Below are positions 12,920 through 19,938 of a DNA stretch of 64,000 nucleotides, one piece after another (the stretch's first letter is position 1; each line of letters starts with the position of its first letter). Under the pieces are notes generated by a model, which did no database searches, was not told the origin of the DNA, and saw nothing but the letters and a program-made list of their open reading frames with translations. Origin of the DNA: an uncultured Nannocystaceae bacterium (GTDB taxonomy: Bacteria > Myxococcota_A > Bradymonadia > UBA7976 > UBA1532); the NCBI GenBank assembly GCA_964402225.1, contig CAYOBQ010000008.1:4293-68292 (forward strand). The letters are read 5' to 3'. Made by a program: the position numbers and the translations under genes.

Positions 12920-15900
12920 ATGCGCGGTCGCGTTTGGTGGATGCTGCTGGCCCTGTGGGCCTGCGACGACGAGCAGGGGAGCGTCGGAAACGCGGGGGAC
13001 GACTCGGGCTCGATCTCAGGGACGCTGGATGGCGGCCATCCAGACGGACCGGCCGCCGACGGCGCGCCGGTCCTCGGTGACGCGCGACCCGACGCCGCCG
13101 CCGACTCGGCCACGGACGCCTCTCATGATGCCGCGGGCGACGCTGCGCGGGACATGGCCGCCGACGCGTCGGCGGACGGCGCCGCGGACATGATGACCGA
13201 CATGGTGACCGCCGCCGACGGGGCCGCCGATGGGGTCGCGCCGGACGCCGGCCCGCCTCCCGACGGCGGGGAGGGCTGCGTCGTGGACGCGCCGTGCGAT
13301 ACGGGGCGCTCGGGGCCCTGCGCGCCGGGGCGCGTGCGGTGCCCCGACGGGCCTGGGGGCGAGGCGCGCTGCGAGCGGGTGGTGGCGCCGGTCGCCGAGG
13401 TCTGCGACGACGTCGACAACGACTGCGACGGCGAGACCGACGAGGGCTTCGCGGGGGTCGGCGAGCCCTGCGTCGCGGGGCAGGGGGTGTGCGCCGGCGC
13501 GGGGGTGATGCTCTGCGGGGGGGCAGCGCCGAGGCGGACGTCCCGGGCCAGGAGATCTGCGACGGGCTGGACAACGATTGCGATGGTGAGACCGACGAGG
13601 GCTTCGCGGATCTGGGCCGCTCGTGCCGCGCGGGGGTGGGGCTCTGCGAGGGGCGCAGCGTGTGGCGCTGCGACGGCGAGGGCGGGATCATCTGCGACGC
13701 CGAGGCGGGGATCCCGGTGGTCGAGCTCTGCGACGGGCTCGACAACGACTGCGACGGGACCTCCGACGAAGGCTTCGAGGTGGTGGGGACGCCCTGCGCC
13801 GTGGGCCAGGGCGTCTGCCTCGCCCGCGGCGTGACGGAGTGCCAGCCGGACGGCAACGGCGTTCGGTGCTCGGCGTCCCCGGCGGCGGCGACGACGGAGG
13901 TCTGTGACCTGATCGACAATGACTGCGACGGGGAGACGGACGAGGGGCCGGTGGGCGGGCCGCTGGTGCGCGCGTGCTACACGGGGCCGGAGGATACGGA
14001 GGGCCGCGGTGAGTGCCGGGGCGGCAGGCAGACCTGCGATGAGCTGGGCCTGTGGGGCCGCTGCGAGGGGCAGACGGTGCCGTTCCCGGAGGCCTGCGAT
14101 GGGCTGGACCGCGACTGCGACGGCGCCATCGACGAGGCCTTCGTCGATGTCTGTTACACGGGGCCGATGGGCAGCGACGGGCGCGGGGCGTGTCGGGCGG
14201 GGCGCTACGAATGCAACGACGGGGTGCGCAGCGCGTGCATCGGCGAGGTGGTGCCCGGCGGTGAGCTCTGCGACCGGCTCGACAACGACTGCGACGGCGC
14301 GGCGGACGAGGGGTTGGCGGGGAACTGCGCGTGTGAACCGGGCGAGACGCAGGGCTGCTACGGCGGCCCGGCGAACACGGAGGGCGTGGGGGCCTGCGTC
14401 GGCGGGACCCAGACGTGCGAGGATCTGGGGCGCGGCTACGGCGCCTGCGAGGGCGAGATCCGCCCCGGCGCCGAGGTGTGCAACGGGGACGACGACGACT
14501 GTGATGGGGCGACGGACGAGGACGTGGGCGTCGGCGCGGCGTGCACGGTCGGGGTAGGGGCCTGCGCGCGGGAGGGGCGCAGGCGGTGTGACGCCGAGGC
14601 CGGCGCGCAATGCGACGCGGCGCCGGGGGTGCCGCAGCTCGAGCGGTGCAACGGGGCCGACGACGACTGCGACGGCCGCACGGACGAGGGCTTCGAGCTC
14701 GACGTGGAGTGCGCGGTGGGGCTGGGGGCCTGCGCGCGCGCCGGGCGCACGATCTGCGGTCCGTTGGGGGACGCGGTCTGCTCGGCGGTGGCCGGCGCGG
14801 CACGGGAGGAGAGCTGCGATGGGGCCGACGACGACTGCGATGGGCAGACCGACGAGGGCTTCCAAGTGGGCGACGCGTGCTCGGCGGGGGCCGGCGGTTG
14901 CCGCGTCGACGGGGTCTTCGAGTGCGCCCCCGACGGCCGCGGGCAATGCTCGGCGCGCGCGCGCGATCCGGCGCCGGAGGCGTGCAACGGGGCCGACGAC
15001 GACTGCGATGGAAGCAGCGACGAGGGGCTGCGGCTGGGCGATGTCTGCCAGGGCGGGGGCGCGGGCTGCCAGCGGCCGGGAGTGCGCGCCTGCGGCGGAG
15101 ACGGTGAGGTAGTCTGCCAGGTCGAGGCGGAGGGCGACGAGGTGTGCAACGGGGCCGACGACGACTGCGATGGGACCGTTGACGAGGGCAACCCCGGGGG
15201 GGGCGAGGCCTGCGAGACCGGAGCGCCGGGGGTGTGCGCGCCGGGGTCGACGCTGTGCCTCGCGGGACAGGTCCGGTGCGTGATCGTAGTGCGCGAGACG
15301 GAGGAGGCCTGCGACGGGCTCGACAACGACTGCGATGGGCATGTCGACGAGGACTTCGGCGGCGGGGACGAGTGCCGGGTGGGCATCGGGGCCTGCGAGC
15401 GGATCGGGCGGCTGGCGTGTGACGAGGACGGCGTGGTCGGCTGCACCGCCGTCGAGGGGGCCCCCGCGGGCGAGGTGTGCGACGGGGTCGACGACGACTG
15501 CGATGGGACCGTCGATGAGGACCCGCCGGGGATCGGCGAGGCGTGCGTGGGCGGTGAGGGCAAGTGTCGCGCCGAGGGGCTCACGGCGTGCGTCGAGGGC
15601 GCCCTGAGCTGTGACGCCCCGCTGGGCGAGCCGGCGGACGAGACGTGCAACGCGTTGGACGACGATTGCGATGGCGCCGTCGACGAAGACTTCGAGGTGG
15701 GCGGCGTGTGCGTGGTCGGCGTGGGGGCGTGTGCCCGCGACGGCGCCTGGGCCTGCGACGACAACGGCGGTCGGATCTGCGAGGGGCAGGCCGGGGATCC
15801 CGCGGACGAGGTGTGCAACGGGGTCGACGACGACTGCGATGGCGTGACGGACGAGCCGCCGTGCGTGGACGAGGAGGCGCCGACGGTGCGGCTGGTCTTC

Positions 15901-18900: not shown

Positions 18901-19938
18901 CAGCGCCTCGTGTCGTGGAACGACGGCGAGGTCTTCGTCAGCTACGCCTACAACACCCAGGGCCAGCTCGTGTCGCGCACCGTGGACGGGGAGGTCACGC
19001 GCTACGTCTACGACCACGCCGAGCTCGCGTTGGAGCTCGACGGCGACGGGGAGGTGCTCGCCGAGTATCTGCACGCCGGCCGCTTCGACGAAGCGCTGCT
19101 GATGCGCCGCGGCGGGTCGGAGTACGGGTATGTCCTCGACACCCGCGGCGACGTCGTCGGCCTCGTGGAGGGGGGCGCGCTGCGCCAGCGCTACGAGTAC
19201 GACGACTTCGGCGAGCTGCTGGTGTCCGAGGGCGGCGTCACCAATCCCCTCACCTTCCAGGCGCGGCCCTACGAGCCCCAGGGCGAACTCTACCAGTTCC
19301 GGGCCCGCGCCTACGACCCGCTCGCCGGCCGCTTCCTGCAGGTCGACCCGATCAAGGGGAGTCGCATGGTCCCCATCACCCAACACCCCTACCTCTACGC
19401 GCGCGCGAACCCCTACCAGCTCCGGGATCCCACCGGCCGGACGGCAGCCATCAGCTACTCCTTCCTGTCGAGTCGCTTCGTGACCGGCAGCGCGAAGGGC
19501 GAGGCGCCGAATATGTACGAGTACATGGGCGCCTTCATCGGCTTCTTCCACGGCTTCGCCGCCACCGGCCTCGTGTTCATCGCCAACATCCTCGAGATCG
19601 CCAACAGCGGCGGGGACGTCCGCCAGCAGTGGGGCGCAGCGATCGCCAAGACGGCCGCCAAGATGGAGGAGATCGAGGGCGCGCTGGGCAGACTCTCGGG
19701 CCTCGACGACAGCGGCTTCGCGGGCGCCTTCGTCAACGGCGCCAAGTTCGAGGTGGGGATCAAGATCACCGTCAGCACCGGGATCGATCTGCCAGACCTC
19801 GTCGGCAAGGGCCTCGGCGTGGCGGGCATCGAGCTGCCCGAGAAGAGCGCCGGGATGTCGATCTCGAAGAGCGGCGGCGGGTTCAAGACCGGCGTCGCCA
19901 ACTACCTCGACTTCCTCACCCAGCTCACGCCCAAATAG
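12920..19938 (+). CDS. Giant lipoprotein, about 2,340 aa if read through. Carries 16 MopE-like putative metal-binding repeats (CDGxDNDCDGxxDEG), an Ig-like region, an RHS/YD-repeat shell and a C-terminal polymorphic-toxin-type domain. Interrupted by a -1 frameshift at a G7 tract (13517..13523)
   Basis: ORF 12920..13834 starts MRGRVWWMLLALWACDDEQ (lipobox) and carries the first MopE repeat. The frame is lost after ...VMLCGG at the G7 run. ORF 13294..19938 picks up in the +1 frame exactly at SAEADVPGQEICDGLDNDCDGETDEG. Adding one G restores LCGGGSAEADVPGQEICDG, which matches the spacing of later repeats. Downstream are YD repeats (TYTYDAEGNVLTRTDALGNTVSYVYGDHGRL..., many copies). The RHS core end is RARAYDPLAGRFLQVDPIKG...HPYLYARANPYQLRDPTGR. 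A roughly 165-aa unique tail follows. Confidence 0.8.
13517..13523 (+). repeat. Homopolymeric G7 tract at the frameshift point inside the MopE/RHS gene
   Basis: ctctgcGGGGGGGcagcgcc. The upstream and downstream MopE repeats are in different frames and join perfectly with G8 or G5. Confidence 0.7.

What the first reader, a model, noticed from the sequence alone, without database searches (positions are those of the whole stretch)
12920..19938. Roughly 2,340-aa lipoprotein fusing 16 MopE-like metal-binding repeats to an RHS/YD-repeat polymorphic-toxin shell
The N-terminal two-thirds is an unusually regular array of CDGxDNDCDGxxDEG repeats, each with a flanking four-Cys module. These are normally found in short copper-binding MopE-like or surface proteins. 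Here they are fused to an Ig-like region, a complete RHS shell (DRTYDSRKRVVGDFGIGW onward, dozens of YD repeats) and the canonical core end RxRAYDPxxGRFLQVDP...PYxYARANPYQLRDPTGR. A lipobox-anchored RHS protein with a long metal-binding stalk is an atypical delivery architecture. In myxobacteria, RHS- and Sit-type polymorphic toxins mediate kin discrimination.
Basis: partly seen in the sequence, partly recalled or inferred. Interest (0 to 1): 0.75.

Follow-up and report, generated by a model that had tools for sequence, protein, structure and literature searches.

The report
Frameshifted lipoprotein RHS toxin on stalk
This is a real but frameshift-broken gene for a giant myxobacterial surface lipoprotein that holds an RHS "cocoon" on a long cysteine-rich stalk; the family is sizeable and undescribed, and its membrane-type cargo is conserved with no partner immunity gene, so it does not look like a kin-discrimination toxin.

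Summary
Window 12920-19938 (+) encodes one 2,339-aa protein once a single missing T is restored at 13522/13523.

**Architecture**
- Lipoprotein signal peptide and a D/A/P-rich linker.
- 15 PF11617 "MopE" motifs (not 16) in about 56-aa six-Cys units.
- Two Ig-like domains and a DUF6531 plug.
- An RHS shell and an Rhs core with an intact PxxxxDPxG site.
- A 166-aa hydrophobic C-terminal domain (CT).

**Support**
- Intact orthologues (69% and 59% identity) are single ORFs.
- About 30 of the 120 best database hits share the MopE+RHS architecture, nearly all from Myxococcota or Bradymonadia metagenome genomes.

**Frameshift**
- It is identical in at least two independently assembled samples.
- This copy is therefore probably a recent pseudogene.

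**Interpretation: partly supported**
- "Copper/metal-binding" is only a Pfam label.
- The CT is not polymorphic. It evolves with the shell and recurs behind non-MopE stalks in other lineages.
- It has an invariant glycine zipper in the protein's only TM-like segment.
- No conserved immunity gene follows it.

**Best reading**
A surface-tethered, Sec-exported, contact-dependent, membrane-attacking RHS weapon aimed at other species rather than kin.

**Novelty**
A new variant of a known kind: large signal-peptide Rhs proteins and lipoprotein teneurin-like proteins of myxobacteria.

The parts
12920..12964 (+). Signal peptide with lipobox (MRGRVWWMLLALWA-C15, followed by DD)
   Evidence: Read directly from the sequence. 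A positively charged n-region, a hydrophobic core and [AG]-C-D-D recur at aa 12-30 in almost all family members. No SignalP or LipoP tool was available, so this rests on the pattern.
12965..13270 (+). Low-complexity acidic linker, aa 16-117 (A 26, D 22, G 17, P 8 of 102 residues)
   Evidence: Composition. It is the least conserved part against the orthologues, at 47% and 37% identity.
13271..15870 (+). Cys-rich stalk, aa 118-984: one leading 5-Cys module, then 15 PF11617 'MopE' motifs in about 56-aa units. Each unit is an acidic CxGxDxDCDGxxDE loop plus a 4-Cys mini beta-sheet.
   Evidence: PF11617 E 4.6e-54. In the AF2 model of the last three motifs, pLDDT is 68-88 and two of them are followed by a small sheet of three strands. 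The stalk has pI 4.05 and 94 Cys.
13517..13523 (+). Frameshift site: a G7 run created by loss of the T of a conserved TGC (Cys202) codon between 13522 and 13523
   Evidence: The sequence is identical in L085 (ENA, SAMN10231891) and L088 (JGI 3300013112). There is no downstream RNA structure (z = 0.16). G7 runs are not enriched in the window.
15871..16443 (+). Two Ig-like beta-sandwich domains (aa about 989-1070 and 1079-1170)
   Evidence: AF2 pLDDT is about 90 or more. Foldseek matches tandem Ig/FN3 modules of adhesins, best E 1e-7. Big_7 gives a weak hit. In most relatives the last MopE motif lies a constant 233-236 aa before the plug motif.
16444..16647 (+). Plug, DUF6531 (aa 1176-1243, includes RTYDSRKRVVGDFGIGW)
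   Evidence: PF20148 E 1e-6 to 6e-6, above its cut-off. It is the best conserved part against P0005, at 90% identity.
16648..19197 (+). RHS/YD-repeat shell (aa about 1244-2093)
   Evidence: RHS_repeat E 3.8e-94 in 17 stretches, and YD_repeat_2x E 1.9e-84. No NHL propeller family hit, and only about 185 aa lie between the plug motif (aa 1199) and the first RHS_repeat match (about aa 1350-1383).
19198..19437 (+). Rhs-associated core (aa 2094-2173) carrying YDPLAGRF, VDPIKG and PYQLRDPTG, i.e. the PxxxxDPxG autoproteolysis motif
   Evidence: TIGR03696 E 1.7e-14, above its cut-off. The motif is read directly. Cleavage after DPTG-R2174 is inferred by analogy with BiTLP and Tc toxins (PMC13018210).
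19438..19938 (+). C-terminal cargo domain 'CT-A' (aa 2174-2339, 17.1 kDa) plus the stop codon. Its hydrophobic glycine-zipper helix is aa 2204-2228 (nt 19528-19602).

Best explanation
Window 12920-19938 is one gene of an undescribed family of Myxococcota/Bradymonadia envelope proteins, which I call MopE-stalk RHS lipoproteins.

**Proposed working of an intact member**
1. The protein is exported by Sec and lipidated at Cys15. This is inferred from the conserved lipobox.
2. It is tethered to the cell envelope, most likely at the cell surface.
3. A flexible acidic linker leads into a rod of 15 disulphide-locked modules of about 56 aa. Their DxDxDCDGxxDE loops probably bind Ca2+ rather than copper (inference).
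4. The rod and two Ig-like domains hold an RHS cocoon away from the cell. A DUF6531 plug closes the cocoon.
5. The Rhs-core aspartyl protease site cuts after DPTG-R2174. This frees a 17-kDa hydrophobic glycine-zipper helical domain inside the shell (inferred from the intact motif).
6. On contact with another cell, or carried on outer-membrane vesicles, this cargo is released and inserts into the target membrane. There it permeabilises or depolarises it (inferred).

**Likely target**
The cargo is fixed across the family and has no conserved immunity gene. The target is therefore more likely other species (competitors or prey) than kin.

**State of this copy**
A one-base deletion in repeat 1 stops translation after a 304-aa product. 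As assembled, this copy is most likely a recently inactivated pseudogene.
For: **One gene, and its anatomy**
- establish the reading frames and the domain hits.
- The intact orthologues P0005 (2,322 aa, 69%) and P0006 (2,328 aa, 59%) are collinear over 99-100% of the length.

**Family**
- About 30 of the 120 best hits combine PF11617 and PF05593. Most of those with a complete N-terminus start with a hydrophobic leader ending in [AG]-C, usually followed by DD.
- L001 and L002 are 3.7-kaa versions of the same architecture.

**Extracytoplasmic location**
- 94 of 97 Cys lie in the stalk.
- The MopE array is a reusable stalk. In other proteins it carries fibrinogen_C, TIG/LTD, FGE-sulfatase and SBBP heads.

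**Structure**
- The modelled MopE modules each end in a small beta-sheet, and the two Ig domains have pLDDT above 90. Foldseek matches adhesin stalks.

**Autoproteolysis**
- TIGR03696 is above its cut-off and the PxxxxDPxG motif is intact.

**Cargo**
- It holds the only TM-like segment in the protein.
- It has an invariant GxxxGxxxG.
- At 17 kDa it matches the roughly 15 kDa cargo size reported for YD shells. A hydrophobic RHS cargo that permeabilises membranes only from the periplasmic side has precedent in BiTLP (PMC13018210).

**Not polymorphic**
- CT identity tracks shell identity: 68% against 67%, and 48% against 54%.
- The same CT occurs in 14 relatives.
- It also occurs behind cadherin/PKD-type stalks in other lineages.

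**No immunity partner**
- The downstream gene differs in all six loci: STPK, PilZ, an unknown 164-aa ORF, MarR, a convergent gene and an unknown 133-aa ORF.

**Frameshift is real**
- The sequence is identical in L085 and L088, which come from different samples and assemblies, and P0176 lies on 3 JGI contigs.
Against: - No experiment exists for any family member.
- Lipidation and surface exposure rest on sequence pattern only. Asp at +2/+3 is an inner-membrane retention signal in E. coli, and its meaning in this lineage is unknown.
- Ca2+ binding is an analogy, not a result.
- A conserved cargo without immunity also fits a non-toxic role.
- No delivery or release mechanism is known for any Sec-dependent RHS protein (PMC13018210).
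- The gene is broken here, so this organism may not use it at all.
- All relatives come from metagenome-assembled genomes. At least one other copy (L081) is also frameshifted.
Confidence: 0.55

Rival explanations
1. It is a classical polymorphic toxin used for kin discrimination. The CT would be one of many exchangeable toxins and would be neutralised by a cognate immunity protein encoded nearby, for example the 130-aa ORF at 21725-22117.
For: - It has the RHS shell, the core and a C-terminal extension.
- M. xanthus Rhs4 and Rhs5 carry signal sequences, act independently of T6SS and mediate kin discrimination (PMC10433427).
- The wider MopE-RHS family has at least three CT types.
- Small unknown ORFs follow the gene in two loci.
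Against: - The CT evolves at the same rate as the shell and is shared by relatives that are only 40-50% identical overall.
- The same CT is found in other phyla, always with the same Ig-Ig-plug-shell module.
- The downstream genes are unrelated. The 164-aa ORF of L081 has no homologue in the window.
- In the closest intact orthologue the next gene is PilZ.
- The locus is syntenic and chromosomal, not on a prophage.
Confidence: 0.12
2. It is a non-toxic surface protein used for adhesion, matrix building or cell-cell recognition, analogous to teneurins. The shell and stalk would mediate contacts, and the conserved hydrophobic CT would have a structural or anchoring role.
For: - The cargo is conserved and there is no immunity gene.
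- The same stalk carries adhesion-type heads such as fibrinogen_C and TIG in sister proteins.
- The stalk and Ig part resembles adhesins.
- rhs mutants of M. xanthus affect S-motility and predation (cited in PMC10433427 and PMC13018210).
- The overall layout parallels teneurins: membrane anchor, Cys-rich repeats, Ig-like domain, plug and YD shell.
- The teneurin Cys-rich region was aligned to PF11617 by Tucker et al. (PMC3278476).
Against: - The autoproteolysis motif is intact, whereas it is lost in teneurins (PMC13018210).
- The cargo is the size and character of a proven membrane-damaging RHS cargo.
- No NHL domain is present.
- No MopE motif occurs in the published bacterial teneurin-like sequences.
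Confidence: 0.2
3. The frameshift is a sequencing or assembly error, or is bypassed by slippage on the G7 run, and the gene is fully functional in this organism.
For: - The remaining 2,137 codons are completely open with coding-type GC3 of 0.92.
- The lesion sits next to a homopolymer.
- The assemblies that share it may derive from related samples.
Against: - The sequence is identical in separately assembled metagenomes: JGI 3300013112 and ENA SAMN10231891. P0176 is also carried on two further JGI contigs, not inspected at the DNA level.
- The missing base is a T, not a change in G-run length.
- There is no stimulatory RNA structure downstream (z = 0.16).
- G7 runs are not enriched in the window.
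- Slippage would give Gly in place of the conserved Cys.
Confidence: 0.25
4. These are two separate genes: a small MopE lipoprotein (12920-13834) and an independent RHS protein that starts downstream.
For: Public annotation calls a 2,149-aa protein (P0004) from an internal start.
Against: - That start lies in out-of-frame Arg-rich sequence with no signal peptide.
- The two frames join without any change in length relative to the single-ORF orthologues.
- The join falls in the middle of a repeat unit.
Confidence: 0.02

Closest known systems
Bacterial teneurin-like proteins (TLPs; Raoelijaona et al., Nat Commun 2026, PMC13018210)
   Same: - A YD/RHS shell closed by a plug.
- A PxxxxDPxG autoproteolytic core.
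- A cargo of about 15 kDa held inside the shell.
- Myxococcota members are predicted Sec/SPII lipoproteins displayed on variable N-terminal adhesion domains.
- No dedicated secretion machine is known.
- At least one cargo (BiTLP) is hydrophobic and permeabilises membranes.
   Different: - There is no NHL propeller here: no Pfam hit and too little sequence.
- The stalk is a MopE-motif array. That motif is absent from the main text and from every held supplementary file, including the TLP sequence file (stored truncated).
- TLP cargos are highly polymorphic and almost always followed by an immunity gene. This cargo is fixed and has none.
Large signal-peptide Rhs proteins of Myxococcus xanthus (e.g. 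Rhs4/Rhs5; review PMC10433427)
   Same: - Myxobacterial Rhs proteins longer than 1,500 aa.
- They carry signal sequences and act independently of T6SS.
- They are presumed to sit on the cell surface and deliver a C-terminal domain on contact.
   Different: - Rhs4 and Rhs5 are strain-specific, prophage-borne and act in kin discrimination.
- The window gene is syntenic and chromosomal, with a conserved cargo.
- I could not test whether M. xanthus Rhs proteins carry MopE arrays.
Bacillus subtilis WapA (known to me from Koskiniemi et al. 2013, PNAS; the paper is cited in PMC10433427)
   Same: It is Sec-exported and tethered to the cell envelope by an N-terminal anchoring region, with an RHS shell and a C-terminal effector. 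It works without T6SS.
   Different: - It is Gram-positive and uses wall-binding repeats rather than a lipid anchor and Cys-rich stalk.
- It carries polymorphic tRNase toxins with the WapI immunity protein.
Metazoan teneurins
   Same: - The order of parts matches: membrane anchor, tandem Cys-rich repeats, Ig-like domain, plug, YD shell, C-terminal domain.
- The teneurin Cys-rich region next to EGF8 was aligned with PF11617 (PMC3278476).
   Different: - Teneurins have a type II TM anchor, EGF repeats and an NHL propeller.
- They have lost the autoproteolytic site, and their C-terminal domain lies outside the shell.
- The resemblance is one of layout. Homology of the stalks is not shown.
MopE of Methylococcus capsulatus, the namesake of PF11617
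   Same: It shares the short CxDxxDNDCDGxxDE-type motif that defines PF11617.
   Different: - There is no detectable sequence similarity to any solved structure, MopE included.
- Here the motif forms a 15-fold array with 4-Cys modules.
- Copper binding by this motif is not established.

Membership tests
RHS / YD-repeat proteins | Multiple RHS/YD repeats forming a shell | tested here: met
   PF05593 E 3.8e-94 in 17 stretches, and TIGR01643 E 1.9e-84.
RHS / YD-repeat proteins | Rhs-associated core with the PxxxxDPxG aspartyl autoproteolysis motif | tested here: met
   TIGR03696 scores 54.1 bits against a cut-off of 32.5. The motifs YDPLAGRF, VDPIKG and PYQLRDPTG are read directly. Actual cleavage is not testable here.
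Polymorphic toxin systems (Zhang et al. 2012, PMC3482391) | A C-terminal toxin domain that varies between close relatives by cassette exchange | tested here: not met
   CT identity tracks shell identity. The same CT occurs in 14 relatives and across lineages.
Polymorphic toxin systems | A cognate immunity gene immediately downstream | tested here: not met
   The six loci have six unrelated downstream genes. An unlinked immunity gene cannot be excluded.
Bacterial teneurin-like proteins (TLP) | The superfold of FN-plug, six-bladed NHL propeller and YD shell | tested here: not met
   No NHL or TEN_NHL hit, even at E<=10 on aa 964-1385. Only about 185 aa separate the plug motif (aa 1199) from the first RHS_repeat match. 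TEN_YD-shell scores below its cut-off (21.9 against 50 bits).
Bacterial teneurin-like proteins (TLP) | [quoted passage not shown] | not testable with these tools
   No model of the TIP domain is available in the libraries.
T6SS-delivered Rhs effectors | An N-terminal PAAR/prePAAR or VgrG-linked domain, and no signal peptide | tested here: not met
   There is no PAAR-type Pfam or NCBIfam hit. The N-terminus is a signal peptide with a lipobox.
PF11617 'Cu-binding_MopE' motif proteins | Matches to the PF11617 motif above the gathering score | tested here: met
   180.7 bits against a cut-off of 27, in 11 stretches. A regular expression finds 15 motifs.
MopE-type copper proteins | Similarity to the MopE copper site or fold, and metal binding | tested here: not met
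   phmmer of seven repeats against all PDB sequences gives no hit at E<=1. Metal binding itself is not testable here.
Bacterial lipoproteins (Sec/SPII) | An n-region, an h-region and a lipobox ending in an invariant Cys | tested here: inconclusive
   The pattern MRGR-VWWMLLAL-WA-C is present, and [AG]-C-D-D is conserved in the family. Trp at -2 is unusual. No predictor or experiment was available.
SitA outer-membrane-exchange lipoprotein toxins | A SitA-type N-terminal domain, an adjacent sitI immunity gene, and TraAB-dependent transfer | tested here: not met
   No hits other than RHS and MopE appear in Pfam or NCBIfam, and there is no immunity gene. Only the lipobox is shared. TraAB dependence is not testable.

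The most novel reading that the evidence does not exclude
The gene belongs to an ancient "fixed-cargo" RHS lineage. In it, the cassette Ig-Ig-DUF6531 plug-shell-core-glycine-zipper CT is inherited as a unit across phyla: Myxococcota, and cyanobacteria-like and planctomycete-like lineages judged by me from sequence character alone.

- The cassette is mounted on whatever surface stalk the lineage uses. In Myxococcota and Bradymonadia that stalk is a lipid-anchored, probably Ca2+-stiffened MopE rod.
- It works without any immunity protein.
- It would therefore be a surface-displayed membrane-puncturing or membrane-docking device for interspecies contact (predation or defence), not a kin-discrimination toxin.

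As a side reading, a bacterial YD-shell protein that carries PF11617 motifs directly upstream of its Ig-plug-shell region revives Tucker et al.'s observation. On that view the teneurin Cys-rich region could be of bacterial rather than animal origin.
Probability: 0.3. Interest if true: 0.7.

Novelty: new variant of a known kind. Interest (0 to 1): 0.5.

Why it matters
**Open question in the field**
Sec-dependent RHS/YD-shell proteins with no secretion machine are only now being recognised (TLPs, 2026). How they reach and enter targets is still unknown.

**What this family adds**
- It is a well-populated variant: MopE-stalk lipoproteins, with dozens of members in Myxococcota and Bradymonadia.
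- It breaks two expectations for RHS toxins, because the cargo is conserved rather than polymorphic and no immunity gene accompanies it.
- A fixed membrane-type cargo makes a tractable model for asking how an RHS cocoon releases a hydrophobic protein into a foreign membrane.
- It also lets one ask whether predatory bacteria use such devices on prey.

**Wider points**
- The PF11617 array is shown to be a general modular stalk, not a copper protein, which corrects a misleading annotation.
- For genome annotation, the public record splits this gene. It calls only a 2,149-aa fragment with no signal peptide.

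Tried and rejected
1. **Programmed frameshift or phase variation at the G7 run.** Rejected.
   - The orthologues have GGT GGC TGC at this point, so the run was created by loss of a T.
   - There is no downstream RNA structure (z = 0.16).
   - G7 runs are not enriched: 20 found against about 30 expected.
2. **Scan of metagenome contigs for alternative alleles around the frameshift.** It gave 0 hits. 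That collection evidently lacks the source samples. The question was answered instead through the look-up of encoding contigs.
3. **Independence of L085.** I first read it as a 99.85%-identical second strain. All 32 mismatches turned out to lie in a 99-nt repeat offset inside the OmpA gene. L085 is therefore the same population, and independence rests on L088 and the JGI samples.
4. **Search for a conserved immunity gene.** None was found. The 164-aa ORF of L081 has no homologue in the window. The 130-aa ORF at 21725-22117 has no Pfam or PADLOC hit and is absent from the orthologous locus L083.
5. **Sequence link of the repeats to a solved structure such as MopE, LDLa, EGF or TSP3.** There is no PDB hit at E<=1, and only PF11617 appears in Pfam at E<=10.
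7. **DNA-level tandem repeats in the stalk.** None with a long period, so there has been no recent amplification.
8. **First CT homologue search.** It found only 3 relatives because of the word-index limit. The profile search without an index showed 59 clusters.
9. **Rfam and tRNA scans of the window.** Nothing found.

Full report
**1. What is in the sequence**

Two + strand ORFs in different frames cover the finding: 12920..13834 (ATG, 304 aa) and 13294..19938 (2,214 aa).

- The first ORF reads sensibly up to ...CVAGQGVCAGAGVMLCGG and then turns into Arg/Ala-rich nonsense.
- The second ORF is nonsense up to ...SAEADVPGQEICDGLDNDCDG and sensible from there to its stop.
- The switch falls at CTC TGC GGG GGG GCA GCG (G run 13517-13523).
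- GC3 of about 0.92 marks this as the coding frame. The neighbouring gene on the left (UPF0047/YjbQ, 12459-12866) is divergent.

**2. The frameshift**

- The two closest intact relatives are P0005 (2,322 aa, 69% identical, 100% coverage) and P0006 (2,328 aa, 59%). Both read ...MLCGGC(T/L)AEAG... at this site, with the same spacing.
- Their DNA is GGT GGC TGC ACC and GAC GGA TGC CTG, against GGG GGG -GC AGC in the window.
- So the T of a conserved Cys codon has been lost. Restoring it gives repeat 1 its sixth Cys.
- The public annotation of the source genome calls only a 2,149-aa product from an internal start (P0004, 100% identical).
- The same G7 sequence is present in L085 (ENA, SAMN10231891) and in L088 (JGI metagenome 3300013112). 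The equivalent product P0176 lies on three JGI contigs.
- L085 is the same population as the window. Its only differences sit in a repeat offset inside the OmpA gene.
- The lesion is therefore reproducible across separately assembled samples. It is probably real, although only read mapping can settle that.
- Nothing suggests programmed recoding. There is no structure downstream (z = 0.16), G7 runs are not enriched, and the run does not exist in the orthologues.
- The remaining 2,137 codons are still open, so any inactivation is recent.

**3. Anatomy of the repaired protein**

- **aa 1-15.** MRGRVWWMLLALWA-C, followed by DD. A hydrophobic leader ending in [AG]-C-D-D recurs in most family members. 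This fits a Sec/SPII lipoprotein signal, but no predictor was available.
- **aa 16-117.** An A/D/G/P-rich linker.
- **aa 118-984.** One leading 5-Cys module, then 15 motifs of the form CxxxDxDC[DN]GxxDE.
  - There are 14 full units of 52-70 aa with six Cys each, or eight in one case.
  - Mean pairwise identity between units is 44%.
  - PF11617 scores E 4.6e-54.
  - No long-period DNA tandem repeat is present.
  - 94 of the protein's 97 Cys lie in aa 1-985, and the stalk (aa 118-984) has pI 4.05.
- **aa 985-1175.** Two Ig-like beta-sandwiches, with AF2 pLDDT of about 90 or more, a weak Big_7 hit, and Foldseek matches to adhesin stalk modules.
- **aa 1176-1243.** DUF6531, the plug, containing RTYDSRKRVVGDFGIGW.
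- **aa about 1244-2093.** RHS/YD repeats (E 3.8e-94 and 1.9e-84).
- **aa 2094-2173.** Rhs-associated core, TIGR03696 E 1.7e-14, with YDPLAGRF, VDPIKG and the PxxxxDPxG site PYQLRDPTG.
- **aa 2174-2339.** A 17.1-kDa C-terminal domain with no Pfam hit even at E<=10.

In the AF2 model of aa 854-1300, two of the three MopE motifs covered are each followed by a small sheet of three strands, with pLDDT 68-88. The acidic loop itself has no regular secondary structure.

**4. The family**

- In the 5.8-billion-protein search, about 30 of the 120 best hits combine PF11617 with PF05593, with or without PF20148. Their lengths run from 2,100 to 3,970 aa, with 7-35 MopE motifs.
- Most of those with a complete N-terminus begin with a lipobox.
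- Sources name them only "RHS repeat-associated protein", "Notch-like protein" or hypothetical.
- Named sources are metagenome genomes of Myxococcales, Bradymonadia, Sandaracinaceae and relatives.
- L001 and L002 carry intact 3,774-aa and 3,726-aa versions.
- In most members the last MopE motif sits a constant 233-236 aa before the plug motif. MopE-Ig-Ig-plug-shell is therefore a fixed junction and not a chance fusion.
- The same MopE arrays also carry quite different heads, including fibrinogen_C, TIG/LTD, FGE-sulfatase, SBBP and RCC1-like domains. The array behaves as a general-purpose stalk.
- The repeats have no sequence relative among solved structures, MopE included. Only PF11617 appears in Pfam at E<=10. 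"Copper-binding" is a label and not a finding.
- The acidic DxDxDCDGxxDE loop pinned by cysteines resembles Ca2+-binding clusters of LDL-receptor class A and thrombospondin type 3 repeats. That comparison is my own knowledge and an inference.

**5. The C-terminal domain is the surprise**

- **It is not polymorphic.**
  - Identity to P0005 and P0006 is 68% and 48% for the CT, against 67% and 54% for the shell.
  - The same domain, which I call CT-A, ends 14 relatives that are only 40-60% identical overall.
  - A profile search of 1.84 billion representatives finds just 59 clusters. Nearly all place the domain at the extreme C-terminus of 1,100-4,300-aa proteins.
- **It crosses lineages with its shell.**
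  - The more distant members are RHS proteins of lower-GC lineages. I judge them cyanobacteria-like or planctomycete-like from sequence character only.
  - Their stalks are cadherin-like, PKD, VWA or other domains rather than MopE. They keep the same Ig-Ig-plug-shell-core-CT-A cassette.
  - A few proteins carry the domain internally without an RHS shell.
- **Other cargo types.** The wider MopE-RHS family has two further CT types, both hydrophobic or non-enzymatic in appearance.
- **CT-A looks like a membrane domain.**
  - It contains the only 19-residue window with Kyte-Doolittle hydropathy above 1.6 in the whole protein (IGFFHGFAATGLVFIANIL).
  - That helix carries an invariant G31xxxG35xxxG39 glycine zipper.
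  - The invariant positions are almost all Gly or hydrophobic residues, with no catalytic-looking constellation.
  - AF2 (mean pLDDT 67.8; 84-93 over residues 30-100) gives a long hydrophobic helix paired with an amphipathic helix, plus a small sheet.
  - Foldseek finds nothing.

**6. Context**

| Locus | Gene after the RHS gene |
|---|---|
| Window | Ser/Thr kinase starting 7 nt after the stop, then a 130-aa ORF, then PilZ |
| L083 (P0005) | PilZ, then the same 1,267-aa protein found at window 25045-28848 |
| L081 | Unrelated 164-aa ORF |
| L086 | MarR |
| L087 | Convergent gene |
| P0017 locus | Unknown 133-aa ORF |

- The kinase with the 130-aa ORF, and the AbiL-like/DUF2293 genes, are insertions in the window relative to L083.
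- No immunity-gene candidate is conserved.
- The gene sits among housekeeping genes at a syntenic site. A Leu/Phe-transferase lies upstream in both the window and L083.

**7. Mechanism**

*Shown*
- It is one gene with the anatomy described above.
- The autoproteolysis motif is intact.
- The cargo is conserved, hydrophobic and carries a glycine zipper.
- No conserved partner gene is present.
- The frameshift is reproducible.

*Inferred*
- Sec export and lipidation at Cys15.
- Disulphide formation outside the cytoplasm. More than 90 Cys in the stalk make a cytoplasmic location implausible.
- A rod-like, probably Ca2+-stabilised stalk that displays the RHS cocoon at the cell surface.
- Self-cleavage after DPTG-R, leaving the 17-kDa cargo inside the shell.
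- Contact-dependent or vesicle-borne release, followed by insertion into a target membrane.

*Precedents*
- The hydrophobic 92-aa cargo of Bacillus inaquosorum TLP is toxic only from the periplasmic side and makes cells permeable to propidium (PMC13018210).
- Myxococcota TLPs are predicted SPII lipoproteins.
- M. xanthus Rhs4 and Rhs5 carry signal sequences and act independently of T6SS (PMC10433427).

A fixed cargo without immunity points away from kin discrimination. It points towards interspecies antagonism or predation, or towards a non-toxic contact function.

**8. Comparison with the known**

- It is an RHS protein by every structural criterion I could test.
- It fails two defining features of polymorphic toxin systems: a variable CT and an adjacent immunity gene.
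- It is not a TLP as defined in PMC13018210, because it has no NHL propeller.
  - That paper does not mention MopE in its main text or in any held supplementary file.
  - Its held TLP sequence file, which was stored truncated, contains no DNDCDG or DDDCDG motif.
- It is not a T6SS Rhs protein (no PAAR domain, and it has a signal peptide).
- It is not a SitA toxin.
- In layout it parallels teneurins: anchor, Cys-rich repeats, Ig-like domain, plug and YD shell.
- Tucker et al. aligned the teneurin Cys-rich region with PF11617 (PMC3278476). This is a lead and not evidence of homology.
- In the searchable literature, only that paper mentions PF11617.

**9. Verdict**

  - The fusion, the lipobox and the RHS anatomy hold.
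  - "Metal-binding", "atypical" and "kin discrimination" do not.
- The feature is a new variant of a known kind. It belongs to a sizeable, undescribed family of stalked RHS lipoproteins with a fixed membrane-type cargo.
- In this genome the copy is probably inactivated.
- Interest is moderate at 0.5. The concept is already known and this copy is broken. The family's fixed cargo without immunity, and its spread across lineages, are unexpected and can be tested.

Noticed in passing
window 19945-22117 and 22473-24970: Compared with the syntenic orthologue locus L083 (RHS, then PilZ, then a 1,267-aa protein), the window carries two insertions. One is a Ser/Thr kinase (PADLOC PD-T4-6 models, E 5e-74, though this may be generic kinase similarity) plus a 130-aa ORF. 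The other is a lower-GC stretch (0.66-0.68) with a truncated AbiLi-like ATPase (E 3e-36), an AbiLii/RloB-like fragment and DUF2293. Together they may be a decayed defence islet.
   Followed up: partly
window about 9100-9260 (inside the OmpA-family gene 7989-9653): The window and L085, another assembly of the same population, are offset by 99 nt in a repetitive stretch. All 32 apparent mismatches of that alignment fall here. It is a repeat-number difference or an assembly ambiguity in an OmpA-domain protein.
   Followed up: partly
L001 9953-21277; L002 3812-14992: These are 3.7-kaa relatives with about 24 MopE motifs and extra PKD/Ig domains. After the DPTGE site and a very hydrophobic Gly-rich CT, they continue with about 200 aa of (GPGGP)n and a further Cys-containing region of about 400 aa. 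That is far too much to fit inside an RHS shell.
   Followed up: no
L081 64-6757 (JAWKQU010000055): Another MopE-RHS gene with the same CT type is also broken by several frameshifts in its assembly. Either these long GC-rich repeat genes are error-prone to assemble, or they decay often.
   Followed up: no
window 25045-28848 (+) and 2259-6521 (-): Two large ORFs (1,267 aa and 1,420 aa) with coding-type GC3 have no Pfam hit on record. The 1,267-aa protein has a same-length counterpart downstream of the RHS gene in L083.
   Followed up: no
Proteins P0160, P0164, P0167, P0170: The CT-A glycine-zipper domain also occurs internally in giant proteins that lack RHS repeats. The surrounding sequence looks transglutaminase-like, but that is my reading by eye only and was not scanned. 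This hints at a role for the domain outside RHS cocoons.
   Followed up: no
L086 2524-5535; L081 14308-16698: Further MopE-motif proteins lie next to or near the MopE-RHS genes in other genomes, for example a 1,003-aa protein combining MopE and Invasin_D3. The genome-contig scan confirmed 324 stretches encoding a relative of the query, most of the listed ones matching the MopE part. The stalk module is massively expanded in these lineages.
   Followed up: no
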